Of a stretch of DNA of 64,000 nt, positions 2,654-61,818 are shown piece after piece. The notes under the pieces are model-generated. The model was not told where the DNA came from and did not search any database. It worked only from the letters and a program-made list of their open reading frames with translations. Each line of letters begins with the position of its first letter. Positions within the stretch are counted from its first letter, which is position 1. A program made the translations under genes and the position numbers. The stretch lies in contig JANJGN010000034.1 of the NCBI GenBank assembly GCA_026770705.1, positions 4,278,001-4,342,000 of the forward strand, in the 5' to 3' direction. This stretch comes from Isurus oxyrinchus. Its lineage: Eukaryota.

Positions 2654-2680
2654 GGGTACAAATTCACGATCTTAAAAAAG
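2654..2680 (+). CDS. Micro-exon (27 nt, phase 1-1) of unidentified coiled-coil micro-exon gene; xVQIHDLKK
   Basis: atttatcttacag|GGGTACAAATTCACGATCTTAAAAAAG|gtatat; symmetric length, open in phase 1. Confidence 0.6.
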
Positions 2681-3307
2681 GTATATAAATGCGGAATAAC
2701 CACTTGGTGTTGCTTGGAAATTATATCCAAAGGCTAATATTTTACACGTACGCTCAATGGTGATGAGGGCAAATTGTAGCAACGACACACCCTGGAATTG
2801 TTAGGTCCACAGGCAACAGAAATCGACCGGGTTCTGTAAGAAGTGGACCTACGCTAGTTGACTTCATGAAGCGCAATATTGCACACTTTCAAAATGAGCT
2901 TCGGACATGACTCTGTTCTTTGCGTGCTGATTAGGAAACGTAAAATTGATACACGACATGACTTCAAAAACGTAGGGCTTGAGGCATAGTGCATGTTACA
3001 AGTTAGGAATGTTTGGCTTCAAAAGTTTCGTCAAGCTTGCGGCAATTCCCACGAGATACTCACAAAATGTAGAAATACTTCAATCGGAATTGTACTGACT
3101 TTTCATCTTAGAACCACGGAAAACACATAAAATGGCATTGGCCCAGATAATACAGAAATTAAAAAGCTTAAACTGAGCAGGGGGTTGTTGATGTTTTTCC
3201 TTTGTTATTTCGGCTATAAGTAAAGAAACCTCATCGGTGTTCCCAGAATGGTTTTCAATTTGTTTTGCGAGCTTCAAATCGAGACACAGTTATCATTTTT
3301 GGTGTAG

Positions 3308-3328
3308 ACCAAAAGCAGAATATAATAG
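3308..3328 (+). CDS. Micro-exon (21 nt, phase 1-1); DQKQNII
   Basis: tcatttttggtgtag|ACCAAAAGCAGAATATAATAG|gtaaca. Confidence 0.5.
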
Positions 3329-4516
3329 GTAACACGAATGCAGAATAATTCCAATGTGGAATTTGCGAAAGAAAGCCATTACGCAGAATACGTCTACAGT
3401 TTGAATTTGCCGTTTTTTTCAATGATACAGCATAAAGACAATTAAGGGAAATCTTGATAATGCTTTACGTAAAACTAAAATCAATATTTGGTGATGACAA
3501 TCGATTCCGAAGAAATAATGTTGGAACGATTTTTTTTTCCTTAAAAGTATTTCAAAAAGCGTGCTCCCGTCGAGAAGGAAAGGCTTTGGCTCGAAAAAAA
3601 TCGTCAGTAGTTAATCTAAGTTGGCATAATGCAACATTTTGTAAGGCTAGATGTGGTCCATGCTTGTCCTGGTAAACAGGCCTTTCTAGTCATATCTACT
3701 GGAAAGGGAGAAAACTGGCTCAGGAAGAAAATTCGATTCCTGTATGGCCGTGTTCTCGCAGCATAGCTTTTCAATACTTCTAAGAATGCGCAGCCCTTTC
3801 ATGCACCTAGCAGTTGTTTCCTCCATGAAGATTGCACGTGCATAGCAACTCATGACCAACACTTCGAAATAGTCCAGAACTCCTTCAGTAATTCATTAGC
3901 TTAGGTAGTTAACTAATCTGAGATTAATCAGTTCACAGCCAACCTTGAGATACGTCGATGAGTTATAACCATCCTATCTGAAAATAGAGCTTAACGTAAG
4001 TGCACTTGAGAACATATTGCCAGAGAAGTATAAGGCAGCACACCATAAATTAATGTCAAATCAAATTTTAGCCTGTACATTTTAGCATCAAACTAAAGAC
4101 AAATGTCGCAGCCAGAAACAGCAAGATGTTAAGGACGGTGAACAAATCCAGAGAGGGAACTGACAAGAGAACAGGTATATAACTGCACAATTTAGTCATG
4201 CTCAATCCATGCCATGCAATTACATCCCGTCATCAGGCCGGATTGCAGAGCTGAATGCCTGAAAATGCTAATCAGAGTCCTTCTACTAAATACAAGTTGC
4301 AGTGTTCAAAAGCCATCTTGCTGCTAGGAGAACTTTGCTGTGTATCAATTATCTGCCGCTGTCCCCTGCGTTACAACAAGGACTTCATTAAACACTTGTA
4401 TCGTATTGGATGTCTTGAGGCCTGGAAAGGCAGCCTGCCAATATTCTGAAATAATTACCTGAAAAAAAAACAATTTATTGAATTACGCAAGCTGATGCTA
4501 GGCTCTTCCACTTCAG

Positions 4517-4552
4517 CACTGAAAGAATGCAAATATCAGCTTAAAGAAAAAG
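4517..4552 (+). CDS. Micro-exon (36 nt, phase 1-1); ALKECKYQLKEK
   Basis: ctcttccacttcag|CACTG...GAAAAAG|gtcaga; ends LKEK like exon 31124-31159. Confidence 0.7.
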
Positions 4553-5081
4553 GTCAGAACTGAGAAAAAAAATTATGAATGAGAAATGTGATTGCTAAAT
4601 GTTGAGCTGGTTCCACATAATGTCCCATTATAGTACAGGCAACTTGTTAAACCACGGTTGAAATAACGTGAAAAAATATCTAGTCTGCACCAAGTAAGTT
4701 TCGATGTGGTGGAAATGAAAAAGGGGACGTAGCGATTTATATTTCAAAACTGAAAGTTCATTGAAGGAAAATGGTTCCAAAAGCTGGAAATCCCCTCGCT
4801 TGTAAATATAACCTCATATGCTTTGTGCTTATGAACATATTGCCTATGTAAATATACCAAAGGCTAAGAAGGTATACTGACATTGACGGCCCCTAATTGA
4901 TGGTTTAGAAAGTCACTATATTATCCACATCCCACCATTTAATCCCTCTGTATCTCTGTACACCGTCATGAAAATTCCCCACATCTCTCTCATCATCCCT
5001 TTTTATCTCTGTATACCGTCATCAACATTCCAATATATACATATACAAATAGATATATATAGGGAGAGACTACTTGAAATG

Positions 5082-5115
5082 TCTTCTTCTGCTTCTTCTT
5101 CTTCTTCTCCTCCTT
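5082..5115. repeat. (TCT)n microsatellite
   Basis: Direct observation. Confidence 0.8.
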
Positions 5116-6799
5116 CCCTATGTTGTTTTATTTTTCCAGTCGCTTACCAGAAGCTTATGATGCAGTGACTAGTGTGCAATTAAAATTCACATAATGAACT
5201 TTGATAACATGGTAAAGGGTGCAGTGCCGTAGCCTCAAAACTGAAAGACAGTAGTTAGCTTTTTCACAAAGTACAATATATGTCCTAGGCGTAATTACAA
5301 GATAACATTAATAATTAGAAGGATAATAGTAATAATAATAATAACATCAACAATTATAATAGTAATAATCACACAACGTATCATCCTTTACTTTTTCGTA
5401 TCACCTGCTGCTGAGTTTCCTTTGACACATTTGATTTGCATATCAGTAGGAACGTACGACTGAAAGCAGAAGCGTGTGCGATATTCATTCTGCTCTGCCT
5501 CACAAATAGCACAGAAAGGCTTGCAGAACTGTTCAGTATCTGTGGTGTAGGTTATAATCCTGATAACCATTTGTTGAAATGCCTTGGTCATTTGTGTTTG
5601 CGTGTTCATGCAGCAGGAGGGGAGGCATGGTGCCACTCCACATCACTACCATTTTCACACTGATGTGCATTGGTACCTAATCTGGCAATTGCAATTTGGA
5701 AAACTTGGGCTATATATCAATTCTTCTCTGCCCTTGGATGTGCCTGGTAAACTGTTTAGGATGCCGTCTATTCTCATCTACTTCAACACAATATTTTAAC
5801 ATTCCATGGTTTGTTCGGCTATAGAAGGCAATCGTCAATCTTAGCAAATATTGACCATCGCAGATTATCGTTGAGAAGGACTAAGCAAGCCCCGTTGTAA
5901 ATATGCATCCTTCTTTGAACTATGAAATCGGTACTGTTCTCCTGAATCACTTTGGAATATTACTGTATGATGAGAAACATGTAAAAATATACAGTTTATT
6001 TTGCCTTTCAATAATGAAGGATACGGTCAAGAAACTAGAAACAGTTTATAACATTTGTGAATACAATTCTGACATGTGTTTTTCAAATATCTAACTTCAA
6101 CGGCACCTGGAATAACAGTTGTGTTCCCAGAGACTTGCAGTAGAAATAATGCAATTGTCCTGAACTTGCCGTATCAAATGCTGCCGCAAAATTTTGTTTT
6201 TCGTCTCCATTGTTTTCGATGCTGAAAAGAGAAGTGTGCGCCATCCTATTTCGCACAATGTAAGATTGTGTAATTGTCAAATTAATATTAAAGCTTTTGA
6301 AACATTGATTTGAAAAAGCATTTGCAGTTATTGCCGAGACGTTAATTGGAGGAAATGATGGTATGGTGTCACCAAATGTTAAAATTCTGATCCTTGTTAT
6401 TATGCAGAATGGTGCCAGAAATATTATTTCATATGACACATTCATGCCTATGCCTATTGGATTAATTTTGGAATTTGTAAATATCAATAAGTTAGAAATT
6501 TTGAATCTGCCATCCTTATTCCTTTTCTCCATAATCATGCAGAGGTTACCATACGCAACAGTAGGAGGCCATTCTCCACATTAAATTAATGCTATCTCCA
6601 TAGGGCAATCCAGGCAAATATATTACCCCATTATATCCGTCTCGCAATTTGCCCATACAATTTCATGAACAATATTTTCTTATCTGTTCCCATGACTATC
6701 ATTAGTAATGATAAATACTACTGAACATGTTACAAAAAAATTTTTCCTCACATTTCCCTGTTCTTCATTTTCAAATCCAATCTTTGCATCTCATGTTCA

Positions 6800-9700
6800 G
6801 CAAGATCATGTCTGATACGATTGTCAATTCGAATCCACATTCCTGCCAACATTTCACCCATTTGTCTGCCAAGAATCTATCTCTGCCTTAAACAAAAGGA
6901 AAGCCTTAGCTTCCAAACCCTTTCGATGTAGAGAGTTTGAAGGCAGACGATTAGTTAGAGGTCAAAAAAGCTCGTCATCTCGCTCTAAAATGGGCGACAC
7001 CATATTTTAAGACTCTCACCCTTGACTCAAGAATTTACTATATGAGACAACGTTTCCACATCCAACACGTCTCGACCCTTCAGGATATTTTATGTACCAA
7101 AAATATCGAATCATGCTCTTCTAATTAATCTCCAATAGAACTAGCCTTTCCAGCCTTACCTGAAAAAAAATAACCAAGCCGTTCCAGATATTGGCCTCGT
7201 ATATCATCAGTGCTCCGCTTCCAAAGCATTTCACATCCTTCTTTAAATAAAGACACTAAAACGGTTTTCCACATGTGGTCTCACCAATGTGCTGCCTAAC
7301 CGAAACACAAGCTCCAGAACAACAATGAGCCATTTAAAACAAAACTTCAATGTGAATTGTAAATTGTTGATGACCAAGCAAGGATCTCTCTGATACGCTA
7401 CTCATTACATTTTTCCACCGTTATAATTACACTTTTGTCCCTACTCTGTCTCCTGTAAGCAAACTAATATTTTACTCACGACAATTTCTAATGCCGGGCG
7501 CCATGGGCTATATTTTCAACACTAGCCCTTGCTTTGGTGCCTTATTTTATGCCATCTGGAAATCTAAGAACACAACATCCATTTGTTCCTTTTGATTCAT
7601 TCCCATTTTCTTCTGCGAAGATCTCTGTTAGCTTCGCTAAGCACGATTTCCCAAATAAAATCAATGTTGAATCTGCCTAATTATCGACATTTGTTGTTGT
7701 GCTTTTTTTCTAATTACCCCGCTGCAACATTTTTTACAGTCATTTCTATCCGGTCTAAAATTTTCCTTTTCATTGTTATTAACAAAACCAAGCATTAGTT
7801 TTTTTTTGATTTCGCCCCCCCCCCCCCAACCCCATCTTCCATACCTTAATAAAGAAGTTATTTTAGATATTTTCAACTCTAATGTAACCTTCCCTTAATC
7901 GAGCCAATGTTGTTAGATTGAAATTAACGTGCCAGATATCTCACTGGCAAGTTGCTTTAAGCTCCTGTAATGAAGCAGTAAGTGTCCGGGAATTTGTCAG
8001 TCAGCGCATACAATAATTTCATCAGTAACACATCACTGGTGACTGTAATTTTCTCCAGATCCTCCGTCCCATCCATTTTCTGACTAACAGCTGCTTATGA
8101 GATGTTAAGTAATGATGAAAATACCTGCACAATTCATCTGCCATCTCGTTACTTTACATCATCACTTCGCCAGAATCACGTCTTTTTGAAGCAACACGTC
8201 ACTTTAAGAAAAAGTTTATATATAAATTCATACTACCTCTTTTTGCATTTCAGCTTAGATTGCTCCCATACTCCATTTTTCTCTGTCCATATTGTTTTTT
8301 TTAGTCATTCTTTGTTTTTTTTTCATTCTGCTAGGGTTCTCTCCATCTTTGTGCAATATATGTTTTGATTCGGCAATTTGATACCATTCTTTTTCTTTTA
8401 GTTAACTATGGATCGTGCTTCCTCACCTTGAAATTTTTATTTGCTGGTGGAATGAGTTTATTCTGTGAATTCTGCAATACCTCCTTAAATGTCTGCCGCT
8501 GCGCCTCAATTCAGTTATCCCTGAAATCAGTGCGCCAGTTCATGATATAAATGTTTTTGCTTAAGTCCCAAATACTAGTTGAGAGCCACTTATATCTCCC
8601 TCAAACTGAATGTAAAATTCAATCACTTTACGCTTATTGCTTTCGAGGGTGACTTCCAGTTTAGGGCAATCAATTAATTATGCCTCGTTGTGCAATAGCA
8701 GGTCCAACATAGTCTATATTCTGGTTGACACGAGGACTTGCTGTTCGAAGAAACAGTCCCCAAAGCAATATATGAATTCTTTCTCTCGGCTCCCTAGGTT
8801 CATCTTATTTTCCAGCCGATATGCCGACCAAAATTCCGCATGGCTATCGCCGAAATTTTCTCAGGATCTCCCATTATTACTCCCTTTGTACGCCTTCCTA
8901 CAGCATTGTACCTGTTAGACGGCCGGTATACCACTCCTACAACTGGCTTCTTGCCTTTAGGTTTCCCGTTTCTACCGCAACCACTTCTACATCCTGTATT
9001 CCAGAGGTCAGATCATTCCTTGTCTTTTTTGTGATTAATGATGTCATCATTAATGAAGAAAGACAGCTCTGCAGCATTTGGTCGCTTACTGTTCTCCTAC
9101 ATTTCAACTACCCTTCAAAATTAATAACCTAATTTATGTCACATTGCAACCATGTCCCTGTAATAGGTATCAAATCATAGTAACCTTTCTCTATTTTCCC
9201 GATAACTTCATCTGCTTTGTTTCGAATGTGTTCAAATAAAGAAACTTTAGTTTAGACATTAGATTTTTTTGTAACCTCTACACGTATCTGATGTCTCAAT
9301 CATTCAGTTGTACTCCTGTCCTGCACTGTCAAGGCCTGTTCATCATTTGGCATGTTAATAGCTTTTTCCCTCTTCCTCCTAGCTACTCGTTCATTTAGTA
9401 CTAATTCCTAATTGTTATCCTTTCTCACTCATTTATTTATGTTGAAACCCTCTCTACTTCCATGGTGCAAGAGCTCAGTAGATCACTGGTTCAAGCGCAG
9501 ATCAAGTGTAGGCAAACCCAGCCCTGCAGCCTCAGATTGTCAAGAAAGTTTTCCAGCGCCCCACAAAATTTAATATAAACCAAGCACACAATTCTATAAG
9601 GTGCGCTTTTATCTCTCTGATTTATTAAACCCTAAGATATTTTGCACGTGGTTTAAGTTATAAACGAGATGTTATTTACTCAAGGTTATTTTTTTTTTAA

Positions 9701-10100
9701 AGATAGTAACTGGAATATTGTAAGCCCTATGCAGGACCTCTTCCTTAGTCCTAATTATATCCTCTGCAACTACTTGCACTTTGAACCCTTGGTTCCACGC
9801 CCTTCGCAGCCTTTCCATTGCAAGTTCCTTTCCAGCCCTGAGCAGACATTGCGATCTTTGGGACGGGGCAGACAATACCGCCTTGTGCAATCTCACTCTC
9901 GAAGGCATGGAACAGTGAGTATCCAACTGAATATACTGTCGATCACTGCCACTGTACAACATTTAACTGCCCCATTGCTTAGTTTTCTGAAGCGTTTTGT
10001 CATCGTCAGGCTATACATTAACACTGCAGCCATCGCCCTTGTCCATACCAAGTAATATAAGCAGTTCAGTTGCAGGTTGTGGAGGCGCGTTCACACAAAC
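6800..10100 (-). mobile_element. Decayed, internally deleted CR1-type LINE (ORF1 esterase-like, endonuclease and RT remnants)
   Basis: Minus-strand 9670-9960 resembles CR1 ORF1 SGNH-like region; colinear with relics at 27570-30720 and 52200-55700; many stops. Confidence 0.6.
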
Positions 10101-12467
10101 CTTCTCGACCCTTTAATTGCCTGTCTCAAAGCCATACACAATTTTCCCTGAACAATGATCAAATCAGTTGATATTACCCCTAAGAGTGTTGAGTGCATCT
10201 TGGAACAAACTATTCAGATTATTTATGTCACATCCCTCGCCCCTTCCTGATTGGCTAACATAACTACAATTCAGTCTGCAGCTCATTAACCCTAATCTAA
10301 CGCACCAGACAAACCTTGCAAATTGTTTGCCATGGATTGCTGCAGCATCCAGGAGCCCCACATGCTGACGCATTGATTAGTAACTCTTTCGAGTACAAAC
10401 CCATTTTCATCTGTTTCAGATGAAGTTACATTGTTTCATAGTTTGCCATTGTGAGATCTGAACTCTGGATCTTGGTGTTACAAACCCAGTACCATAACCA
10501 CTTGGCTATTTAGGCCAAGCTGCATTGATTTGTAACCCGCCCTGCAATCTGCAGTGTGTTTATTAAATAGCTCAATGTTTTCCTACACATTTTATGTTTC
10601 CCACCCTCACTTAACTCCTCACACGGCATATCATCAGTTTTAAATCTCGTGCATTCAAAGCAGTAACCACTGCAGATAAAGCAGCAATGAGGAACCATTG
10701 CTCTATAATTTTGAAAAAAAAATAAACAAGTGAGTGAATCACTGAAAGCCACTTTAGTTTACTGACCCAATTAAATAGCTGTAACTTCTCTCATCGAGCC
10801 TGTATGACCATGTTCAATGCTGGAATAAAATTTACTTATCTTCATTTAAAGAGTAAGTTTTAGTTTATTGCTAAATTAAAAGAATAATTGGACTTTAGAG
10901 ACAATTTAGCTTTTAAAACTTCCTCAACCACTACACTCAGGAGTTCTCATTGCCGTCTGAAATAGTCTCCTTGTTCTCCTTTATTCAAAGGAAAACAACC
11001 ACATCTTTCCTTTCGCCACGTGGAAATATTGCATTCTGATAAACCACCTGGGCGCCCTCTCAAAGATCCTCACATTCTTCCTAAATGATGCGTTGCTGTG
11101 AAGTGCTAAACAGAATTATATATATATATTCAGCATAAGCTGAGAAAATCACTAATTTGTTGCCATTGGCATAAATTCTGAAGGTCACAATCTAATATTA
11201 TCTAATTATATGAGGAGAAACTTGATTGCAGTGTGAAGAAAAAAATAACACCGGCAGAGGGTTACTGGCGGCCTATACTCGGTGATAACATTTATTACAG
11301 TCGAAAGTCGGCAGCTGGAGCAAACTTGGGGTGAATAAATAGCAGAAGGAAAATATAAGTTGAGGCCTGGGCTCTGACAGAGATCTTGGAAAGTTGATGC
11401 ATTGGAGGAATCCATAACACCTGCAGAATCTGAAACTGTGAGTTACCCGAGGGAATTTTCGGCAGTTGAATCAGAGCTGTGAGGGACAGGCAATGACATC
11501 ACAGCAAATTCGTGAGTGGTTAGCTTTTGAGTCTTACAGCTGTGTTCCAGTATCTCCAAAAGAAGTGGCTGAATCTAAGCAGTGAGTGATTAAGCATTAA
11601 AAAATCATGCTTTATGTATTCAATAATTATCTCTAAAAAGTGTAGAGAACCAACAGAAAAGAGGAAGAGGTAAATCCATATGTTAAGATAACATTGCCGT
11701 GCTGGAGAAGTAAACGGTGCTCCAGGGGGTTAACTGTGGAATCTTGTTAGCTAGGGCTACGGAACAACAAAAGGTGCAATTGTAATGCCCCTGTCGCCTA
11801 TAAGCTGCCGACTACTGTTAAAAAATAGAGTAGCACATTTTCAAGAATTTTAGTTAGGGACAAGAATAATACCGTTGTCAAAATGGAGTGTTTGAATTAC
11901 CAGGATAAAGACTGAGATAGTACTTTGTTAAAGGGCAGAGCCCGGCTAGACTTCCAGCATTGTGCTCAGGATAATTCACCACTACAAGTGGTCATTGCTG
12001 CTGTCAACAACATGGCCAAGAAAAAAATGTGAACGCTCTAAATTTAAAGCCACATAGGTTCACAAGTAAACAGCGCCCCAAATACTGGATCATTGATTTC
12101 CATAGAATGGAATAAAGACAGTCCCTCCACTCATGGCCCATGCCTTCCCTCTTAATTTGTGGACATGTCAATGAGCAACGTGAACCATCAACAACCTGTG
12201 TTTCTGGCTCTTTGGTTGAGCGAGTGTACCTGAAAATACTTAATGTGCCATTTCGAAAAGAAGCACTGGCAATTTCTTTGAATCTTTTATTAATGTTTTT
12301 TTTTTACGTGCTTTTAAACATCTCTAGGAAAGCCGGGCAACAAAAATTGTTCACAGAATGCAAAGATTTTTATTTGCATTTGGTACAATTCCATTGAGTA
12401 GATTACTATTTAGCAAACAAAAACTGCTTGCTCATCCCTTCTTTTACTTATGTCACTTTGGTTATAG

Positions 12468-12503
12468 AAACTTCACCTCCTGGAGACCGCTGTCAAGTAG
12501 ACG
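12468..12503 (+). CDS. Micro-exon (36 nt, phase 1-1); ETSPPGDRCQVD, Pro/Gly hinge-like with Cys
   Basis: Pyrimidine tract then gttatag|AAACTT...AGACG|gtaagt (consensus donor); similar to exon 44342-44377. Confidence 0.8.
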
Positions 12504-13499
12504 GTAAGTGGAGAGGGATTGGATTCAGATCGCATGGCAGCAGTCATGGAACGTTTTAAGAAGGCAGTAATACAGCCAGCATTATAGTGGTAATATCTGC
12601 GAGACATTACTAAATGGGCCAAATCACATCTTTATTTTTTAAACGACCTTCAGGCTTTATGCATTCACACATCTTGACAGTTAGGGCAATAGTAGAAAAT
12701 TAAACATTTTGGATGAGCTATTTGCACAGATGTGCATCGAAATGCAAGAAGCAGACATTTGAGCCCAATGGTATTTTCTGTTGAGTGTGTCCCATGCGAG
12801 TGTTAACTCACCTGGCTTCACTGAATGGCATCCCAATTTGAATCTATCTTTTCTTGGGCGTTATTATGGACCTTTCCCTTAAAAGACCCAATATCATATA
12901 TCTTTGCTAGGTCATGTGAAACTACATTCAACATTCAGTCAACACACTTGACATGGAAGATTTTCGTTATTAGAAGTGATTGTATTTGTTGGGAAATTTC
13001 GATCAAAATAATTTGTGCAGGATATGTGATAGCCCTTTAGAAACTAAACTGAATGAATGCATTCATTGATGGTTCGAACACAAAGTATGATAAGCTAATT
13101 ATTGCTCGGATATGAGGTGACCCATCTTTCGAACCAGGTATGTTCCTTGAGTGCGAAATTGATAATAGTTAACATATTCAACTAGGCATCACTTAATTGG
13201 TGTGGTGACAGACATTCTGTCTAATTATAGCAGATGGCAGCCAGAAAGGTGTTTCAGATGGCCCCTTGCTTTGCTTGGCACGAGAGGGAAGCCAGAGGTT
13301 AAAATCTGACCTAAAGCCTGGCATGTTGACCAGCAACATCGATAATGGGTAGCATGGAATGTTGTCGATCATAAGCGGAGTGTGACCTCTTCTTAAAGGA
13401 TGACAGGAGCAGGTGATTTCATCATCAAGCAGCGATAATTCAGATTTGTCATATCCCGCACCTGTTCCACCTCTTGCAGATCTCCACTATTCATAATAT

Positions 13500-14170: not shown

Positions 14171-14689
14171 AATCTTCGGAGCAGTGGCAGAAATTAATCA
14201 ATTGACGTTGCTCCCGACGTTTATCCTGACACCAAACACACTTGTAACAGGTTCCAATTATTCAGGCTGTTAAGGAGTTTTGAGAAACAGTGTACTCAGG
14301 GGAGCTCAAACGGGGCAAAGTGCTGTCGGGGTGATAGAGGGCGCAGTCCATTTTGGAAGCAGTGTGACAATTTTTAATGTCCAGCCTTTGAAAATGAGTG
14401 AATGGATGGACAATGGTTTGGGTAAGTGAATGAATGGATCGGTATTGTGGTTATAGAGTGTAGTTGGGTAGAGAGATGAATGGTTAGGCCTTTATGTGAT
14501 CGAGAGGCAAGCGTACTCAGAGTATTTGGTGTATGGGGAAGATGGGCATGTGAACATACTTCTATTTGGTTAAGTGGATGCTTGAGCCCGAGCGTTATTT
14601 CAGTAGATGCATGAAGTTTTTTTTTTATGGACATTCATTCCCACGTCGGCTTCTGTGTAATCTCTAGTAAGTGTCACACTCAATGAGCG

Positions 14690-48095: not shown

Positions 48096-48149
48096 ATCAC
48101 TTCTTAGTGTGAAGTCGTTGTTCTCTATCCTCTGAGCCATGTCAGACAA

Positions 48150-51169: not shown

Positions 51170-52190
51170 GCTACAAAGGCAAGAACGGAAAAAAGAATAA
51201 AACCAGACTGGCTACCCGGAATCGACCCAGGCTCGCGTAATGACACAACAAATCCCGGTCATGCAAATCACCAGTCCAGCTATACAGTGAGATTAGTCAA
51301 CCAATATCATACATAGACATAGGCACGGAATCATACGTTACGGATAAGTATCCAGACATCTGAATCACCATTCCTGCTGGGAGGACAGGGTATACCCAAA
51401 TGAGATGGCGGCACAGTGGTATAAAATTTAGAGGGAGTTGCTCTGTTAACGGGTCAGGGATCCCTCCTGGTGTTTACCACATACCGCCATAGTTTCTTCA
51501 TCTTGAGCACCACTTGGAGGAAGCACGGGTGTGGGGAGTGGGTGAGGGGCAGGGGGTGGGGTTGGTGGGAAATGCACAGAATGTACTCTGAGTGGGGGAA
51601 TTGAATGTCCTTCAATCCCCAGCACTAAGTCTGGCTCGATAGCAACACCACAGATTCAGCTGGCAGACTCCTAAATGACTTGTGTTCTACACTGGCTCTG
51701 CAGCAGATGGATAGAGGGGAAAAGCCTACTTGAACTCAACTTCACCAACAAGCCTCATGAAATTTTATCTGCCTGTGGCAGTATCGATGAGGGTCATCAC
51801 CGCACAGCCCTGGCTGAGTGAACATCCCTTCTTCTCTTGAGGATACCATAAATCGTTTTTTATGGCGCTTCTGCACTTCTAGGATAGACTTCGTACAAAT
51901 CTGGACTAGGCAAGTAAGGTGCACTGCTTTCCATCAGCAGTAACAGACTCAAGCACAAAAAGCAAACCCATGGAGGGACATGCCCCATTATACAGTAGGG
52001 TCAGGGCATCAACACTGATTCAAGGATGATTGCAGTAGTGCATGACAGGAGCAGCACCAGGCTAACTAACAATGAGATTTGAACTTATTGAAGCTACAGC
52101 ACAGGACAATTTTCGTGACACACAGCATAATCAGCTGGGTAAGAGGCCGGCCTAAAAGATCCTATAACCATCTGATCAGACCGAAACGCT
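51170..52190 (+). mobile_element. LINE endonuclease-region relic (CR1/L2 group)
   Basis: Remnants DIGTESYVTD, DGGTVV and NVL*VGELNV resemble APE endonuclease motifs. Confidence 0.55.
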
Positions 52191-52199
52191 GCAGTCCTT

Positions 52200-55100
52200 C
52201 CACATCTCATAGTGAAGGTCATGCAGCTACCGAGTAACCGTTTGTGATTCATCCCCTAGGGCACAAAATTTTCATTCAATTTCAGCTTTCAGAAATGTCA
52301 GCTTTTAGAAAATAAGCTTACTTTTTTATTATTATTATTAATAATATTGCCGAAATATAAAACCTCATTTTCACATATAATAATATTTGTGTCACGTCAT
52401 TGCCAAATCAATTAACCTATCCACGTTATTCTCAAAACTTCCATCCTCATTTGCTTCCTTGGTATACTTAACTTCTTAAACTAACTTTGGTCAGAGAGTT
52501 TAGCAACCATAACTTCATCCAAGTCAGTTATATATATTGCAATATATTCAGGTTCCAGCAATAATACATGTAGCACACCACTCCTAACATCTTGCCAACC
52601 AGAAATTATTAATTTATCTCAAGGTTCTTTCCCCTGCTAGCTAGCCAGTCTTCACTTTATGCCAGATTATTATGCCATACACCAACAGTTTGAATTTTCA
52701 CAAAATCCAATAATATGGCACGTTGTCAAGCACCTCCTGGAAATCTAAGTGCAGTTCATCCACGGGTTCTTTTTTTTTCACTGCACGTTACTTTTTCAAG
52801 GAACTTAAACTGTTTGAACATGATTTCCCTCTCAGAAAAAGGTGTTGAATCTGCCTGATGAGATTAATTTCTCCACATGCCCTGATATAATGTCCTTAAT
52901 AATAGCGCCGAATTGTTTACCTAATGAAGATCTTAATCTAACTGTACAGTCGTTTCCTGCATTCTGTCTCTCTTGTTTTGTAATAAAATAATTACAATCG
53001 CTATTTTCCCATTTCATGGAAGCAGCCAGAATATGGGAAATTTTGGAGCATGAAATACAATGCATTTGGTATGCCATTTAAAACTATAAATTTTAGCGCA
53101 TCAAGGCCGAGGGCCTTGTTATTCCACCGTTCAAATACTTTTTGCAAAAGCACTACCCAGCTGTTTGCAGTTCTTTTCATTAGCTCCCTCCATTGCATTG
53201 GCTGATTTAATGCTATTTCAGGGATATTAGTTGCGGTCACTCTAGTGAAGACGAATGGAAAATACCTCTTCAATTTTACTGTCATCTCCATAATTTCCAT
53301 CTTCAATTCCCCAAACTCGCTTTCTATATTACCGGCGCTAATTTTGCTGAATATTTTCATTTTTTTAAATGCCTATTCGTATTATGTCTTATTTTATATA
53401 TTTCTAGCTAGCCTTTTCTGTTAGTCAATCTTTCGCTCGTTGTTAATCTGTAGTAAATTTTTGCTAACTGATATGTTTTGCTGTTGTCTGCATTGCCACC
53501 CATTCTGGCACAAATATATACTTTGTCTTTAAGATTTATGTTATCTTTAACTATTATTTTAGATATCGACAGAAGGAAGTTCTGCCCTTGGATTTCTTTT
53601 TTCTCCTTAGAATATATCTATTGTGTGTTCTGCGATATCCCTCAACATGCCGGCAAATGTCATTCTATTAAACTAGCCTTCAGCTAATTTTCCAATTCAC
53701 TTTATTGAACTCCGATTTCAGGTGCTCATAACTATTATTTTTAATTCCAAAATATTAGCCTTCGACGCACCTTTCTCTCCATCAAACAGATTGAAAATTC
53801 AGCCGTTTTAGGATCACTAGGGGTACCTTCACAACGAGGTCACTAATTAATACTATCCCGTTGCAATGTACAAGATCCAGCGTAGCAAAATCTCTCGTTG
53901 TTTTCTGAATGTATTTTCGACTTAACTATTCCGAAAACATCCAGGCCCTTGTCATCTAGCTACCTTTGCTCATCTGATTGTACATTCTGTATGCAGACTA
54001 AACTCCCCCATAAATACGGCCGTTACTTTCTGAGAGGGCCACATTATGCCTAACTTTGCACTCTGTCCTACATTGTGGATACGATTAGCGGGCCTGTACA
54101 CCAGTTCTACATGTGACCTATTGTCTTTACCATTTCTCATCTCTGCCCAAACCGTTTCTGCATTCTCATTTCCCAAACTGAAGTCATCCTACGCCTTTGT
54201 GCTAATTCCATCACCAATTAACAGAGCAACCCATCCATCTTTTTCTAGCATCCTTTTGTTCTGGCATCCCGTATAGACTTCAATAGTCTGGTCCAAAACT
54301 GCCTTCCTCCAACTTAATCTCTGTAATGGCTTATGTCTCGTATTTACTTATTTCTATTTGAGCTATTAGTTCATCTGTTTTGTTTCCATTGTACGTGCAT
54401 TCGGATACTCACCATTAATTTTCTCCCTTGATTATTTTGTAACCCCTAGCCATTTAAGGTGCTTTGCAGTTTAACATTCACCTTCTATACTTCTTCCTTT
54501 TGTCTGTTTTGTAATTTCTCGTAATTATACTTTTCTCTCATCCATTGCCAATATAGTTGTATGCACCAGGTCTACTCAAATTTGATAGTTCCTCCGCAAA
54601 ATTAATTTTAACATCTTCTCTACTTCTGTAGTTAGGAGGTTCCCTTGAACATTCGACCCAGCATGATACAGGTCTGGCATTTGCCAATGACACAGCCCAC
54701 AGTTGCCCACATAAATGGACAATTGCTGCCACAATGGTCAGTGAGGCGTGCATTCATTTATTTACTCTCATTTGCTGTATGACAGCCTGAACGTGGCTGA
54801 GGCAATAAACGACTGGTTATTACATTTGCCGTTATTCTTTTAATGTTAGTGATTAGTTCCTGATACTGAATATGCAGAACATGTTTTCTTTTCCTGCCTA
54901 TGCTTTGGTATGCATATATTCCAAAACGACAGGATCCTTCCCCTACCACTCCATGTTCCCTTCCAGCACTACGCAGATGTATCAAACGCAAGCACGGGGT
55001 AGGCTATACAGCCTTCAGGACTCTTGCTCATTTTTGCAGAGAACAGATTCAGCGCACTCGCCATACTGTCTCCATACCAGCTCTGCATTCATTATTTGCT

Positions 55101-55700
55101 CACCCCACTTGTATTGCTTCCTTGACTACTGTGGCGTGGTCTGTCAGCTTATTGCCTGTGAATCAGTTATGCTAAACCAAACAAGGTGAAAGAACTCCAA
55201 ACATGGAGTACAATGCAAAACGTTGAAGATTCCGCACTCTTGCCCTCTGGCTCTGCTTATTTCTTCCTCTATGCTGTATCCTACACTATTGTAACTTTTA
55301 GCCCTGTTCGCCTTTTCGAAATGAGGCATATTGCCTTTATGAGTAATTATCTCTGCCAAAACTTCTTTTGCAAGCTGGTTTATTGAACTAACGTCACATG
55401 TGCCAATTCCGTAATCAATTAACTGACCAACCCCTTTCCTGCCTCACTTTGTAGAACCTTCTTCTCCCTACTAACTAATCTGATCAGAAGGTCCTATCTT
55501 AAAGTGTTTTATCGCTACCACAACTAATTCGCCAGGTTAAATCCCCTGCCCTGATGCACCACAGTATCTTCAGCTCAGCCTCCAGATCAAGGACAATGAG
55601 CTGAAGGTCCTCGGAAAATAAAATCTTATGGAAGAACATCGAGGAGCATTCCCAATCTGCAGCCTTGAGCCGTCAATGTCCTACCATCCTCAATATTTGT
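52200..55700 (-). mobile_element. Decayed CR1-type LINE
   Basis: Minus-strand AETVWAEMRNGK..VELVYRP..VFMGEFSL, LKRYFPFVFT, KALGLD, VRLRSSLGK..IIKDII. Confidence 0.8.
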
Positions 55701-56249
55701 CAATGGAACAATTAAAAGCTTTATTTAGTTAATGGTTTTCCATTCTTATATATCACATGAAAATTTGATTATTGTTTAAAAAATACATAGGAATATCATA
55801 AAGCTTAACAACTTAGCAAATAAATCTCTTGATACTAACCAAACAGTTAGCTCCTTCGCTTTAGGAGACGGACAACCCACCGTATAGCGTTAAAATTTTG
55901 GATAACGCAAAGAAAGGGATTTGCATTCTTTCCACAAGTCCATCCCTCACCCAATTCTCACCGATCTTGTTCACAGTCACGTTCCAGTTCTATTTCGCAA
56001 TGAGAGGCCTGTATCAAATTGCCCTGAAAGGAAAGATTTAACTGAGCCTCAGGTGTATAAAAAAAAAGCATAATTAACATGCATTAGAAAACTAGCTTCA
56101 AATCCGCTCCAATGGATAGCTTGTCTAGGCATTCATAAGCCAGGATGAAATTTAGAAATTAAGCAGTAAATTTCAGTTAGATGTGAAATGTGAAATGCAA
56201 ACCAAGTACAATTTTTAGACAGCCATTAAGTTTCCTTCACTCAATCAAC

Positions 56250-56770
56250 TCCCAGCAACCTTGTTCAAATCACAGTCCAATCTCAGTTTATGGAAAAGTA
56301 TGTATCCCAAAAAGTTTATGCCCCATACTCGCTTCCTCCCCTTCCCCTCACATGAATGAATCTGCTGAAATGCAAAACAGTGGTCAGTCTTTTAAGCCTC
56401 ACTGCGTTCTCTGGTCTTGTTCACACTAGTTGCAAAAACAGAAATCTATTGACTCTCACAAGGGCTCAGGTTCGTCTACTGCACACTTCCAGGCCCATAT
56501 ACCTCCCTTACTTGTTGCCACACCCTCCAATTCTTGCGTAGGTGCCAAATGTGGAATGCATAGCCTAAGCGATATGACCTCGCTCTGGAAAAGTTGCAAA
56601 TGTGACTGTACGATCCTTGAATATTCGCTTGTTCTGAGCTCTGACTCCAGCTGATCACTAGTAGCCGGAATTTCTCGAGCTGAAGTCAATTACTGCAGAT
56701 GCATTTGCCTTGGACACGTTGGCATCCACTATTCACATATGCAATAGCTCCAGCAGATCCTCTTCCCCAC
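56250..56770 (-). mobile_element. CR1 ORF1 N-terminal (zinc finger/leucine zipper) relic
   Basis: Minus-strand QLESELRT..FQSEVIS resembles CR1 ORF1 ELE.EL..LR..F.EVVTP. Confidence 0.5.
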
Positions 56771-58329
56771 CATCTTCGCATTTTTCTTTTTCAAATGACT
56801 TTCAAGCTTCTCATTGCTACTCAACTCTAACCTGCAGTTGTGGCAGATAATTTAACAAGCCTAATAGTCGAGAATCATTTTCAGGTCGCTTGCAGTGACT
56901 TTAAGATAGCAATTATATGATATGGCTGAAGAGGGAAGACCCGAACTCACATCAAACTCAGATGATTTGACAGTTCGCCTGCGATTTCAAGCCTTGGAGA
57001 ATAATAGCTAAGAACTGTGACATTGCTGTCTGTCGAATTTGGGACAGACTGTCTCCCATATCACGTTGGTTTTTAGAAACTGAGACGTAAAGATATACAG
57101 CAATGAGGTGTTCTTTGGCATAAATTACACGGCCCTTTCCTCTTGCTTGAGTGCGAGGAAATGTAGCCTCATTCAACTGTAAATAGGCCTCTTGCCTGAT
57201 ATGCCTGAAACAATGTTCCAACAGTCACTTCAAAGCAAATACTGCAATTGTTTATGCTGAAATTTGTTCTCTATTTTGGGTTGAAGGGATCGCAGAATGC
57301 CTTACGTTATTTAGGGTCAACACAGATCCAAGAATTAGTTCTCTGAGATATCTTTTCTGACAATGGCAACGTTTTCATATTGACGCTGACTAAACAAATG
57401 GTCTCCATGCCATTGATAATGATAGCCAAATTCCGGCTTTGTGTATGCATTCTGTGTCTTTTTTTTTGGTTCTCCCGATCGTTTTGACACCTTTAACAAA
57501 GCAGGACATTAATGTACAAAATGAAGATATGGCTGTTAGTGGCTCGATAATGACAGGGCGTTGGCATTTAATCTACGCAATATTCTGCAGTTCCCATAAC
57601 TTGATTATGTAACTTAAGGATAAGCACACAGAAGATGGTAGAATTCCTGACCAGTAAACTTAGTTAGTTCAGCCTAGAACCTGCTTCCTCTTGGACCAGT
57701 AAGGTGCTTTGCTCGAGTAACTTTGAAATACCTCAAGGCCGTTGTCTCGGAAATTACTTGGGCTAGGGCAGTGCTGCCATTGCTGGTACTCTAATTCGAA
57801 TTAAAAGAAAACTAAACTACAGTGAGCAAACGTTGAGTTCTTTCCAAAATATTTCAAAGACTCCTCTGAAGAAGGGTAACTTGGAGAAATGCTGCAAACT
57901 GTGACCGAGCTCCCCAAGACTTCTGTCGTTGGGAATGCTGCCAGAGACGGCGCTGAAGCTCACCTCTTTGCGCTGATAATTGCACCAGCCAAGTAATGTA
58001 TCCAAGCGGGCAACATTAGGACTGAAGCAGCAACATTACACTAATGTGCTTGCGCTCTCTGAAATTGATCCCAGCCTCCCCTTTGTGCTCAAAACCAAAG
58101 GTCAGTTCAGCATCTTGAACTGAAACTGGCTTCACAGTTTGTAAGCATTGACGTTGCGAGCTTTGCAAATAGCATTTTTACAGACATGATCACCAGCAGT
58201 TTAATTTCATGCTGGCAGTGAGTGAAAGTATGACATTTAGGCAATCATGGAGCGCAACACAAGTCACTCAAAATTCCCATGGCTGCCCTTGTTCCCTAGA
58301 CAGCATTTAGTTATGCATACAGTTAAAAA

Positions 58330-60790
58330 TGATACCTCATCTGGAGAGTTCAGACCGGAGCACAGAGAGTGTCAGGATGCAGGATGCACGGCAAAGGTTT
58401 CCTAGGAAATTGGCACCATTTACAGTAGAGCTGGAACCTGTAAAACCGGAATGGTTTCCATCTCATTGACCGATTTGCTAGTGCTATTGTGAAGGGGAAA
58501 ATCAATTGGAATGGTAACTGGGACTCAATAGTTATAATTACGGAATATATCGAAGTTGCATTAGGAGGCGCAGAAAGGAAAAGCATAAGTATTAGTTGGA
58601 GTCAAGGGTAACGTGATACCTTAAAATTGGAGTGACTCCGCACGTGACGATGTGAGAGAATGTCTGAAAAAAAGGTTGGTGGAACTGAGGGAACAAAAGA
58701 TAGATGCAAATATGATGTTATGGTAAAAACAGGTAATTGGTACAAAGAGAGTTATTTGCTACATACGCCTGAATAAAATGGTGCTCATCAAAGATCTGGA
58801 GGCAATGAATGGTGGAAGATGGCAGTAAAGATTGACATTCCAGAACTAGCGGGAGCCTATATCCTAGTATATTTGAGGACAGCGTTCCTTTTTTCTGCTA
58901 AAGCTAAGGAACAATAAGATCAAGGATCAATCCAGTAACAAAGTATTTTACAGGTGAAGGAGAAACGTGAATTTGTTGAGAACGGATCTGGACTAGGTAA
59001 ATTGGAATCAATTTTTTCCAGTCAGAGCTGAAACCAAACCATTATTCACTTCAAAAATGAAAGAGTTTCTATTTTCTTAAGGGATATTACAAACCTGTCG
59101 AACAATTGTGGTGCAAAATATTGCCGAGCTTCCTAGAATTCCTAAAAGTTAAGAAGCAAAATGAATTAGGAGAAATGCTAAGTGTGCATATTTACAGTTT
59201 CATATTACATTTGAGAATAAGGCTCCCTCGAGATTGTTCAAAGCAGAATTTTCAAAAGCGACAATCAACAAGAGGCAAATATAATCTAATGAGTGTTAAC
59301 ATGAAAGAATATCAAGCTGATTTATTTTGACATGTGAGGAGTAAAAGTGTGATAAAAAGAGGAGGGGTCTCTGTTATTCACAAGTAACGGGTTTTGCATA
59401 TGGCGGCAGGTGACATGACGGACGCATTCATTTATCACTTTGACTTTGCCATGACAGAACATGGTGCCAAAGTCATTGGTTGTAGGGAAGGTGGTTGAAA
59501 GTTGTCATGAGTGTAAAATTATAAAGGAGAGGTATTGCATAGAATGACTTCTCTTCATGTTCATGAAGTTTCCAGGGTTATTTGAGATCAACAAAAGGAT
59601 GCTGAGAGAACGTAGGGTTGTCTACGCAGAGGCACAGGGCATAATTTTACGGCCTCTGTACAGATAATGCCGGCATTGTTGGACATGATCCGAAATTCTA
59701 GATTATGCTATGAGCCTTACAGATTGGGCAGGATCCTATATAATCCAACTCCTTAAGAATGGTGACAAAGGGTAAAATGAGCAACTAAAGCCCTGTTAGC
59801 AAGCCATCAGTAGAAGATGAAACGTTGAAATCCATTGTAACCGTTCTGATAATTGGACTTCAAGAATATTATTATATGGTTAGTCAGCGTCAACATAGAC
59901 ATTTCAAAGGGGAAACTTGTTTGACATACATTAAGTTGAAATAAAATCATTTTCAACCTCCTTGCAAGCATTTTACACAGCGAGGAGCACCGCCCTGCAT
60001 TTCAATTTATGTTATTTGATAGGACTTTTATTAACACACTAAATTTAATGTAAGGACGTATTTAGTAACTTCTTTCGACAGCAATGATAGGAGGAGCCGT
60101 TAATAATATACAATATAATTATAAAGGTTTGTCGGAGCAGATAGACGTGTGGTAAATGCGCATACATCAATGAATGTTGCTTACATGTGAAGAGGACACT
60201 TCGAAAAGCACACATGACCTTCGGCTTTTAAACAGGACCATCGAGTACTGAACCAAGGGAGTGATCATAATTCTGTATAAAAACATTGTTCTGCATTGAC
60301 AGGAGTATTGCGCCCGGTTATGGGTAACACACCTCTGCAAGGTTATGAAGGTATTAGTAAGAGTACAGTAAATGTGATGACAATGGTGCCAGATATCCAG
60401 AACTTCATTTACGTCAACAGGGTGAATAGGCTGGCAACATTCCCTTTGTAGAAGACAAAGTTGAGAGGAGATTTGATTGAGGTATTCAAAATCATGACTG
60501 ATCAGAGCAGATTTGGTACCAATAAACAGTTTCCATTGTAAACGATTTAACATGTTGAGAAGAGAATCACTGTATATGTGTATCCACGTACCTGACCTGT
60601 ATGGAAATGTTTTATTGAATGATGGAGGCAGGTTGAATCGTGGTTCTAAAGTGGGACCCTGGGGTATTTAAACTATATGAAATGGGCGAAAACAGATTTT
60701 CTGTGGTACGCGGAAAGACAAGGCAGTGGAACTTGTTCAATCATTGTTTCTGAGAGCATATACAGGGATGGCTGAATTACGCTTAATTTT
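58330..60790 (+). mobile_element. Decayed CR1-type LINE ORF2 and 3' end
   Basis: Plus-strand remnants colinear with the other CR1 copies (gagaggagatttgattgaggtattcaaaatcatg = RGDLIEVFKIM; gatggctgaat tail). Confidence 0.7.
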
Positions 60791-60971
60791 TTTACATTTT
60801 GTGGTACGATTTCCTCACCTCTTCTATGAGAACGAACGTTGGGAGGTTGTGTAGGTGCAACTGTGAGCGCTGGAGTGTTTCTATCACACTTTGCCAAGTC
60901 AGCCATCCCCCCTACTTCGTATGATTTCCTCCTGCAATATTAGAGCTCATCATTTTGATATTCCTTTTCAG

Positions 60972-61007
60972 AGCTAAGGGATTTGTGGAAAGATACAAAA
61001 GTAAAGG
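60972..61007 (+). CDS. Micro-exon (36 nt, phase 1-1); ELRDLWKDTKVK
   Basis: atattccttttcag|AGCTAA...TAAAGG|gtgaga; EL(K/R)xL start like 23910-23945. Confidence 0.75.
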
Positions 61008-61791
61008 GTGAGAGTAGAGGAAAATTATGGAACTTGTTTTAGCTGTATAATTATTATGTAGCACGAGTCACAAATGCAAAGGTCATTCTCTTTAATTTAT
61101 TTGTTCATTCTAGATTATTGCGTAAGGAGTTGCAAATTTTAAATATATGTGTGAATGGTGAATTGTAAATGTAACAATAACTATATCATTTTGTGAATGG
61201 CCTCCACCTTTAACTTGTGATTTTTCCTTCTGTATAAAAGTTATTATATTACAGCAACTAGCTTTCACCCACAACAGAGCATTGCTGAAATATTTGGAGT
61301 ACCGTACAGCAAACATTTTAAAATAAACATAATGGCTATAAAACCTTGCCCCCACCAACACACACACACCCACGGCCTGTAACCTCCTCCAAGCACAGAA
61401 CCAAACGATAGGCCCACAGTGAATGGAAAATGTCCACTGGAACATTTTCCTTTTTACCTCTTCGAGTATTCCAGCCTTCCACTGCCAGAAATAAAAGAAA
61501 TCTGGATTCCATTCCTAAAATGTTCCTCTTCGCTACTGCCATTAAAACATTCCATAACTAATTTTATGGAACTTTGTGCTTATTGTCCTAAAACCAGCTT
61601 TTATTTTTCGGCATCAGATTCTACTCTGCAATGAGTCTAGCTAGCGAATCGGGACCTTTTCAGGGTAAATGCACCACGTAAATTGTTTTTGAGCGTGTTT
61701 CACATCAATCTGAAAAGGAATCATGCTACTTTTCAACAATTAACTCATGTCAATAATTCCTTATTCTAAAAAAGAACTTTAAACTTCATAG

Positions 61792-61818
61792 ATGCCCAGC
61801 TAGCTGATAATATACAAG
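61792..61818 (+). CDS. Micro-exon (27 nt, phase 1-1); DAQLADNIQ
   Basis: tttaaacttcatag|ATGCCCAGCTAGCTGATAATATACAAG|gtaaga. Confidence 0.7.

What the first reader, a model, noticed from the sequence alone, without database searches (positions are those of the whole stretch)
2654..61818. Hidden gene built almost entirely from symmetric phase-1 micro-exons (18-36 nt)
Seen: 20 plus-strand AG..GT segments of 27,21,36,36,27,27,18,36,36,27,27,27,36,21,27,36,30,27,36,27 nt (585 nt over 59 kb), all multiples of 3 and open in phase 1. Joined, they read xVQIHDLKK-DQKQNII-ALKECKYQLKEK-ETSPPGDRCQVD-EIQAMLQKT-MDTLFEKKK-ATGGDF-HLKMCEIDRVKN-ELKALKIEIREA-EQRRDAAET-QLLAKCKSD-DKRLLDQLT-VNLKLRGELKEK-SFHLQGG-PSKLRKIHE-EAVPGGNEKCRK-VISQELLEKT-MKTLFEKEN-ELRDLWKDTKVK-DAQLADNIQ. 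This is an E/K/L/Q-rich helical peptide broken by Pro/Gly segments, with five Cys. Established: runs of tiny symmetric exons occur in chicken BG cytoplasmic tails (mostly 21 nt), butyrophilin heptad exons, triadin and Schistosoma micro-exon genes. I do not recognise this peptide as any of them. Inference: an unannotated or mis-annotated rod protein whose exons can be skipped in any combination without frameshift, so splicing could diversify its length and sequence. Caveat: I selected for symmetric open exons, so some may be chance. Clustering at 27/36 nt (16 of 20) and the paralogous pairs argue the set is real.
Basis: partly seen in the sequence, partly recalled or inferred. Interest (0 to 1): 0.92.

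Follow-up and report, generated by a model that had tools for sequence, protein, structure and literature searches.

The report
Giant micro-exon coiled-coil B30.2 gene
The tiny exons are real and are the middle of a roughly 810-kb cartilaginous-fish gene made of more than 220 exons of 21, 27 or 36 bases that build a long coiled-coil rod ending in a B30.2/SPRY binding domain, a gene family that public annotation catches mostly as short, misnamed fragments.

Summary
Observation confirmed. All 20 exons exist and join without a stop; 27/36-nt phase-1-open segments number 13 on the plus strand, 1 on the minus, 1.55 in shuffles. The window is the middle of a much larger unit: phase-1 micro-exons run from a 111-nt leader-like exon 272 kb upstream to an intact B30.2/SPRY exon ending at +539 kb. 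The catalogue holds 221 micro-exons (93x27, 83x36, 37x21 nt). A 21-nt exon is one heptad; a 27+36 pair is three. The two sizes alternate in 136 of 163 neighbour pairs, so single skips keep frame but break the coiled-coil register. No Ig, RING or B-box exon lies in 926 kb. Four close B30.2 paralogs sit on the same contig. The B30.2 clade has named members only in sharks, rays and chimaera, labelled TRIM39-like, A33-like or nuclear-pore anchor-like; database models differ by 9- and 12-residue blocks. It works like the butyrophilin/BG heptad-exon tail but fails membership. Not shown: a transcript of this gene (four RNA runs gave no cover), its first exon, or whether it is secreted (my lean) or membrane-anchored.

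The parts
2654..2680 (+). 27-nt phase-1 micro-exon
   Evidence: acceptor 8.9, donor 5.0
3308..3328 (+). 21-nt phase-1 micro-exon (weak sites)
4517..4552 (+). 36-nt micro-exon, L1/C4/L8 heptad type
12468..12503 (+). 36-nt Pro/Gly linker exon, resembles 44342
17200..17226 (+). 27-nt micro-exon
18745..18771 (+). 27-nt micro-exon; paralogous copy at C34:5,459,252 (91% over 44 nt)
19011..19028 (+). 18-nt Gly-rich linker exon (weak donor)
19780..19815 (+). 36-nt micro-exon
23910..23945 (+). 36-nt micro-exon
24356..24382 (+). 27-nt micro-exon (weakest sites)
24505..24531 (+). 27-nt micro-exon
26621..26647 (+). 27-nt micro-exon
31124..31159 (+). 36-nt micro-exon
31934..31954 (+). 21-nt linker exon
42751..42777 (+). 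27-nt micro-exon
44342..44377 (+). 36-nt Pro/Gly linker exon
47123..47152 (+). 30-nt micro-exon; with 49679 and 60972 forms a motif also seen in three database relatives
49679..49705 (+). 27-nt micro-exon, resembles 18745
60972..61007 (+). 36-nt micro-exon
61792..61818 (+). 27-nt micro-exon
1..64000 (+). The whole window lies inside the inferred gene (C34:4,005,537-4,817,027). Parts outside it, as C34 position minus 4,278,000: 111-nt leader-like exon at -272,463; block of 21-nt exons -207,502 to -91,580; 27/36-nt run +65,138 to +533,964; 27-nt penultimate exon +536,251; terminal B30.2 exon +538,507 to +539,027

Best explanation
One very large protein-coding gene (C34:4,005,537-4,817,027, about 811 kb, about 224 exons catalogued) of a cartilaginous-fish B30.2 subfamily. 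SHOWN from DNA: a leader-like exon, then about 221 symmetric phase-1 micro-exons (6,489 nt), then one intact B30.2 exon; 21-nt exons carry one heptad (Leu at a, Cys or Lys at d), a 36+27 pair carries three (L/C, L/L, L/K); the array grew by tandem duplication and loses modules by single hits in GT or AG. INFERRED: these exons are spliced into one mRNA for a protein of about 2,400 residues or more; chains assemble as a parallel coiled coil about 300 nm or longer (at 0.15 nm per residue, textbook value) that holds B30.2 ligand-binding heads at one end; rod length is tuned in register-keeping steps of 7 or 21 residues, in evolution and probably by splicing, while lone 6-12-residue linker exons act as optional hinges. 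MOST LIKELY location (about 55:30 over a cytosol-facing anchor): secreted, with the core Cys forming inter-chain disulfides, as a long stalk-and-head binding or matrix protein. I put the architecture at about 0.85 and architecture plus secretion at about 0.5.
For: Strand and length bias over the 810-kb span: at score >=12, 21/27/36-nt candidates are 40/83/90 plus vs 20/17/12 minus; 195 of 213 are open in phase 1 vs 30 of 49. Cross-fitted classifier: 199 exons of 21/27/36 nt plus, 0 minus. Alternation 136 of 163 vs 0.5 in shuffles; period-3.5 power 7.7 in +286-345 kb vs max 2.4 in 500 exon-order shuffles. pN/pS 0.62 over 85 paralogous exon pairs. One B30.2 in 926 kb, no IgV, IgC or RING/B-box; leader exon occurs twice, the second 42 kb after the B30.2 stop, followed by colinear copies of the next exons; largest gap between catalogued exons 26 kb. 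Pfam SPRY E 2.9e-14; BTN3A1 E 2e-20; TRIM7/BTN3A1 fold E 1.5e-9. The 1,697-aa Callorhinchus model P0067 has the whole layout: short hydrophobic start, long coil, SPRY only; its two model versions differ by five 9-aa and five 12-aa blocks among 16 gaps. For secretion: short hydrophobic N-termini followed by charged residues in P0067, P0165, P0110; four R-x-K/R-R motifs in P0067; Cys at d in 33 of 83 36-nt and 13 of 37 21-nt exons.
Against: The ATG-bearing first exon was not identified: candidates exist but none is shared between the two neighbouring genes. The joined window peptide aligns to the coils of 8 relatives no better than exon-order shuffles (50 to 201 of 300 shuffles reach the score). 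The 21-nt block shows no global heptad signal in my catalogue (367 of 500 shuffles reach it), probably because false exons break the phase. The joined catalogue has 3 stops in 2,162 residues, so it holds some false exons. About 20 exon copies are splice-dead and one (+523745) holds an in-frame TGA with GT/AG intact. Against secretion: only 5 N-glycan sequons and no R-x-K/R-R motif in the catalogued 2,162 residues; B30.2 and heptad tails are cytosolic in butyrophilins and BG; five of eight family models lack a hydrophobic start (likely 5'-partial, not tested).
Confidence: 0.6

Rival explanations
1. Same gene, but the N-terminus is an uncleaved signal anchor and rod plus B30.2 face the cytosol: a butyrophilin/BG tail that lost its Ig ectodomain and acts on the cytoskeleton or as an intracellular sensor, like the chicken zipper protein.
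For: BG tails are cytosolic heptad arrays of 21-nt exons and the zipper protein is such a tail (PMC4046983, passages). In P0067 the hydrophobic start is followed directly by a basic cluster, the positive-inside pattern. Few sequons; K/E/L-rich composition.
Against: The hydrophobic stretch is short and ends in acidic residues in P0165, P0110 and both local leader exons; no 19-residue hydrophobic exon was found among strong symmetric 60-201-nt exons (best mean hydropathy 1.5).
Confidence: 0.25
2. The 810 kb holds two or more shorter genes or a partly decayed array; only the 3' part is still spliced to the B30.2 exon and the window belongs to a relic or a separate coil-only gene.
For: About 20 splice-dead copies; pN/pS only 0.62; most database relatives are 200-950 aa; internal stop-bearing terminal exons without a domain would escape my scans.
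Against: Closed frames among strong 21/27/36-nt candidates are 18 of 213, about what the minus-strand background alone gives (19 of 49); a single leader exon and a single B30.2 bracket the span; a window exon is conserved at 91% further along the contig while 2.9 kb around it is not; P0067 shows that 1,700-aa forms are modelled in a distant relative.
Confidence: 0.12
3. The segments are chance AG..GT matches picked by the reader.
For: Random candidates are common (45 on the minus strand of the window at score >=12) and a few of the 20 have weak sites.
Against: Length, phase and strand bias, alternation, heptad register and paralogy.
Confidence: 0.01

Closest known systems
Butyrophilins (BTN/BTNL, ERMAP; present in cartilaginous fish, e.g. 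P0229)
   Same: Heptad region followed by a terminal B30.2 domain (PMC4046983, PMC8813856, passages); best PDB sequence hit is BTN3A1 B30.2.
   Different: No IgV, IgC or membrane-spanning exon; hundreds of heptads instead of a few; Pfam PRY not matched in any of 9 family proteins; B30.2 falls in its own clade.
Chicken BG proteins and zipper protein
   Same: Long coiled-coil tail from 21-nt exons, with length variation and alternative splicing (PMC4046983, passages: 13-36 exons per gene).
   Different: BG has one IgV plus TM and no B30.2; here a B30.2, no Ig, at least six times as many exons, and a 27+36 three-heptad unit.
TRIM / A33-like / NF7 proteins (the names RefSeq gives the fragments)
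   Same: B30.2 in a phase-1 terminal exon; about 30-35% identity of the domain.
   Different: No RING or B-box; the coil is built from micro-exons; separate clade from the TRIM-type B30.2 domains, including the two tested from the large C21 cluster.
Enterophilins (recalled, guinea-pig heptad + B30.2 proteins)
   Same: Ig-less long heptad run plus B30.2 (recalled).
   Different: Recalled as cytosolic and far shorter; not tested, the word had no occurrence in the 20 papers listed.
Schistosoma micro-exon genes (recalled)
   Same: Coding region mostly symmetric exons of 36 nt or less after a signal peptide (recalled).
   Different: No homology expected; recalled MEG products are short and lack a folded end domain or a register rule. 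No paper on them was read.
Uncharacterised chordate coiled-coil + SPRY clusters in the ESM Atlas
   Same: 1,277-1,802-aa proteins, SPRY 100%, scores 0.92, 0.90 and 0.79 to P0067.
   Different: Automatic names only, mostly with PRY; taxa known only as Chordata; homology of the rod and exon structure not tested.

Membership tests
Butyrophilin | Extracellular IgV (and IgC) domain | tested here: not met
   Profiles from 11 fish butyrophilins: best E 0.8 (IgV) and 0.7 (IgC) over 24,643 six-frame pieces of 926 kb; controls hit 22 and 18 database proteins. 47 kb upstream of the leader exon was covered; gene 2 has only 42 kb to the previous gene and none was found there.
Butyrophilin | Transmembrane helix before the heptads | tested here: inconclusive
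   No TM-like internal exon; the N-terminal hydrophobic stretch could be a signal peptide or an anchor, and exon 1 is not identified.
Butyrophilin | Heptad repeats from small exons | tested here: met
Butyrophilin | C-terminal B30.2 (PRY-SPRY) | tested here: met
   SPRY E 2.9e-14; fold match (model pLDDT 59); the PRY half is divergent and not matched by Pfam.
Chicken BG | Single IgV plus TM | tested here: not met
Chicken BG | Tail of 21-nt exons, no B30.2 | tested here: not met
   37 of 221 exons are 21 nt; B30.2 is present.
TRIM (RBCC) | RING and B-box | tested here: not met
   Profile from 15 fish TRIMs: best E 0.22 in 926 kb, control 64 hits; none in 9 family proteins by Pfam.
TRIM (RBCC) | B30.2 within TRIM clades | tested here: not met
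   16-row family clade, SH-aLRT 100, apart from 60 other B30.2 rows; quick tree, no bootstrap, midpoint root.
Micro-exon gene (MEG) architecture | Most coding exons symmetric and <=36 nt (definition recalled) | tested here: met
   219 of 221 catalogued exons are <=36 nt, all multiples of 3 by construction; the unbiased length spectrum peaks only at 21, 27, 36.
Micro-exon gene (MEG) architecture | Many splice variants shown in cDNA | tested here: inconclusive
   No cDNA of this gene was available; database isoform models of three relatives differ by 6- and 9-aa internal blocks.
Triadin | N-terminal TM and lumenal KEKE tail without end domain (recalled) | not tested
   Not compared directly; the B30.2 end and a/d Leu register argue against.

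The most novel reading that the evidence does not exclude
Cartilaginous fishes carry an undescribed family of secreted giant rod proteins (genes of 0.8 to perhaps 1.5 Mb, 250-300 or more exons, near titin's 363) whose length is set digitally: modules of exactly one or three heptads are added by tandem duplication, switched off by single splice-site changes, and skipped as coupled 27+36 pairs by the spliceosome, giving disulfide-stitched rulers of variable length tipped with a B30.2 recognition head.
Probability: 0.3. Interest if true: 0.9.

Novelty: new variant of a known kind. Interest (0 to 1): 0.72.

Why it matters
It would be among the most exon-rich vertebrate genes (titin has 363 exons, PMC3575840, one passage) yet nearly invisible to annotation, which finds the B30.2 end and calls it a TRIM. 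The family spans sharks, rays and chimaera, so it is as old as their split. The strict 27/36 alternation gives a directly testable question in splicing: are micro-exons skipped in coupled pairs to protect a coiled-coil register? It also offers an early relative for the heptad-exon design of butyrophilins and chicken BG, whose tail function is still open, and a clean case of exon birth and death by splice-site mutation.

Tried and rejected
RNA: no RNA holder listed for window 17000-26800. Four of five same-species runs (contigs, RNA guessed) laid on the last 10 kb of the gene covered only short repeat stretches and one low-depth patch, not the B30.2 exon: no evidence either way. First exon: ATG-plus-hydrophobic phase-1 candidates exist (10 for gene 1, 8 for gene 2; -296512 is the most leader-like) but local alignment found none shared. 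Whole-peptide alignment to relatives was no better than shuffles; the one shared motif (3 of 8 relatives, 0 of 5 controls) was drawn up by eye after seeing the data and is weak. Protein searches with each 111-nt exon found only itself, though blastn links the two at 70%, so these searches are insensitive. A search with the coil of P0067 found only itself and its older model. Single-sequence fold of P0165 was uninformative (pLDDT 45). Two exon-pattern searches hit only this gene. The Pfam V-set scan listed one C34 hit, 8 Mb away (only 150 of 3,319 candidates scored). The careful tree did not finish; the quick tree is used. Earlier scan notes: none returned. Literature: nine full-text searches listed no paper on this family; subscription papers and bioRxiv supplements are not covered, so absence from print is not established. 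Genes 2-5 were only sampled, not walked.
Full report
Coordinates are window-relative throughout; C34 position = coordinate + 4,278,000. The window is G000:C34:4,278,001-4,342,000 in a 4.98-Gb assembly.

1. Observation. All 20 segments are present, AG..GT bounded, 585 nt in total, and join without a stop only in the phase-1 frame. With generic splice matrices (recalled frequencies), candidates of 15-45 nt are equally common on both strands (46 vs 45 at score 12), but 27/36-nt ones open in phase 1 are 13 plus, 1 minus, 1.55 mean and 5 max in 20 shuffles. A DNA search of the genome with 2.9 kb of the window returned one other match, a 44-nt piece at 91% that covers exon 18745 and its splice sites, 1.16 Mb downstream: exon kept, introns not.

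2. Extent. I read 926 kb continuously, -320,000 to +606,000. Between -272 kb and +538 kb the unbiased length spectrum of plus-strand candidates peaks only at 21, 27 and 36 nt (40, 83, 90 against 20, 17, 12 on the minus strand), and 195 of 213 are open in phase 1 against 30 of 49. Adding paralog-supported and reader exons gives 221 micro-exons, 6,489 nt, median gap 1,976 nt. The join has 3 stops in 2,162 residues, so a few are false; the true number is probably 250-300 (inference from the 50% recovery in the window). The array starts at a 111-nt phase-1 exon at -272,463 and ends with a 27-nt exon at +536,251 and a 172-codon phase-1 exon at +538,507. That exon is a B30.2/SPRY domain: Pfam E 2.9e-14, BTN3A1 E 2e-20, TRIM7 and BTN3A1 folds from a pLDDT-59 model. 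It is the only B30.2 in the 926 kb, and profiles for IgV, IgC and RING/B-box found nothing (best E 0.8, 0.7, 0.22; controls 22, 18, 64 hits). A second copy of the 111-nt exon (70%) lies at +581,457 and is followed by copies of the next exons in the same order: the next gene begins there.

3. Grammar. Position profiles: 21-nt exons have Leu at 1 (32 of 37) and Cys or Lys at 4; 36-nt exons have hydrophobic residues at 1, 4, 8 and 11 (84, 82, 66, 45%), Cys at 4 in 33 of 83; 27-nt exons have Leu at 3 (57 of 93) and Lys at 6 (59 of 93). So 21 nt is one heptad and 36+27 nt is three. Neighbouring 27/36 exons alternate in 136 of 163 cases (shuffles 0.5), 54 of 58 at +250-350 kb, and 37 in a row at +301-345 kb. 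Period-3.5 power at +286-345 kb is 7.7 against at most 2.4 in 500 exon-order shuffles; in the 37-exon block removing one exon drops it from 9.4 to 0.4-1.6, removing a pair leaves 8.5-9.4 (12 cases each; this follows arithmetically from the lengths). Results against: the 21-nt block shows no global periodicity in my catalogue (367 of 500 shuffles reach it), and the window is a divergent, linker-rich stretch (alternation 6 of 11; 43 of 1,000 shuffles reach its power). Frame is nearly always safe: 199 of 221 exons end in G and a random pairing makes a stop in 1.1%.

4. Turnover. Tandem duplications are visible: a 26.7-kb unit at +142-196 kb (83-86%), a 7.4-kb unit at +347-362 kb (99.2%), a 1.25-kb unit at -112 kb. 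Best paralogous exon pairs give pN/pS 0.62 (85 pairs, crude count). Of 34 further paralog hits, 7 were intact and 27 flagged broken; I inspected 22, of which about 20 are recognisable exon copies with a change in GT or AG (one of them has a usable AG 9 nt upstream), and one has an in-frame TGA. Modules are thus born by duplication and silenced at splice sites.

5. Family. The B30.2 has four close paralogs on C34 (59, 58, 44, 40%; at 6.396+, 7.496+, 3.474-, 2.709- Mb) and weaker ones on C21. All four, and C21:89.7 Mb, have a 172-codon phase-1 terminal exon; three of the four show the Trp-starting 27-nt exon within 7.5 kb upstream. A profile search of 1.84 billion proteins and cluster look-ups gave single-domain best hits from Scyliorhinus, Leucoraja, Narcine, Callorhinchus, Cetorhinus and Hemiscyllium, named TRIM39-, TRIM69-, TRIM58-, A33-, BTN3A1- or nuclear-pore anchor-like; Pfam finds only SPRY in all 9 scanned. 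In a quick tree of 76 domains nine of these and seven own-genome domains form a 16-row clade (SH-aLRT 100; isoform duplicates left out); the gene here groups with P0067, P0165 and P0026 at 92, and P0067 is a long branch. P0067 (Callorhinchus, 1,697 aa) has a short hydrophobic start, about 1,500 residues of mostly coil with 11 [ED]LxxC motifs, then SPRY; its two annotation versions differ by five 9-aa and five 12-aa blocks among 16 gaps. RefSeq isoform models of three shorter relatives differ by internal 9-aa (three cases) and 6-aa (one case) blocks. These are computed models; I did not see their read support. They suggest single linker-exon skips occur.

6. Mechanism. Shown: exon set, register rule, end domain, absence of Ig and RING, paralogy. 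Inferred: one mRNA, a rod of about 2,160 residues or more (about 320 nm if continuous) with a B30.2 head. Location is open. For secretion: 11-15-residue hydrophobic starts ending in charged residues in P0067, P0165, P0110, echoed by the short hydrophobic start of both 111-nt exons; four furin-type motifs in P0067 and two uncatalogued candidate exons here ending in such motifs (-230,934, -213,390); regular core Cys; and a precedent in bowfin proteins that look like type II membrane proteins with an outward B30.2. For a cytosolic anchor: BG and butyrophilin tails, the basic cluster in P0067, only 5 sequons. Expression remains untested.

7. Comparison. It works like the heptad-exon tail plus B30.2 of butyrophilins and like the BG tail (PMC4046983 and PMC8813856, passages seen; PMC12841164, passages, reports conventional Ig butyrophilins in cartilaginous fish), but it fails the Ig test for both and the RING/B-box test for TRIM. 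The ESM Atlas lists chordate clusters of 1,277-1,802-aa coil+SPRY proteins, so the layout may extend beyond cartilaginous fish. Nine searches listed no description of the family; other papers were seen as listings only. Enterophilin, MEG and triadin comparisons are recalled.

8. Verdict. New variant of a known kind; interest 0.72, held down because splicing is unproven and exon 1 is not found.

Noticed in passing
G000:C34:4,859,457 to 6,396,330: The neighbouring paralog may span 1.54 Mb: its leader exon is at 4.859 Mb, the copy of window exon 18745 at 5.459 Mb, and the next family B30.2 at 6.396 Mb. Only sampled.
   Followed up: partly
G000:C34:2.709 Mb and 3.474 Mb (minus strand): Two family B30.2 exons on the opposite strand, so these genes run away from this one; 27-nt phase-1 exons lie upstream of the 2.709-Mb B30.2. 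Their 5' ends were not found.
   Followed up: partly
window-relative +523745 (27 nt; C34:4,801,745): Exon copy with GT/AG intact but an in-frame TGA, 15 kb before the B30.2 exon; inclusion would give a headless rod or trigger decay.
   Followed up: partly
window-relative +347475 to +362371: 7.4-kb tandem duplication at 99.2% identity carrying exons; very recent or an assembly artefact.
   Followed up: no
window-relative +197148 and -129409: Length shifts by splice-site change: a 36-nt exon with a dead acceptor can be read as 45 nt from an upstream AG; a 21-nt exon has a second, stronger donor giving 27 nt.
   Followed up: partly
window 36500-41700: Degraded retroelement copies on both strands in the intron between exons 31934 and 42751 (reverse-transcriptase-like ORF pieces, recognised from memory; dispersed copies at 79-82%). 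A dispersed repeat also gives a recurring false 21-nt exon candidate elsewhere in the gene.
   Followed up: no
G000:C21:82.9-118.2 Mb: More than 100 B30.2 exons in one cluster (two tested fall with A33-like TRIMs), with two members of the micro-exon family clade at 89.7 and 91.3 Mb.
   Followed up: partly
proteins P0009, P0013, P0278 (Amia), P0089, P0102, P0112: Proteins that look like type II membrane proteins (the Amia ones named TRIM39- or A33-like): one TM, a coil often with N-glycan sequons, then B30.2, implying an extracellular B30.2. Outside this family's clade.
   Followed up: no
window-relative -230934 (30 nt) and -213390 (18 nt): Candidate exons ending in furin-type basic motifs just before the 21-nt block; not in the catalogue.
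   Followed up: partly
window 25165-25337 and 46470-46672: N stretches (173 and 203 nt); an exon under them cannot be excluded. A (CTAT)n array at 46370-46458 abuts the second.
   Followed up: no
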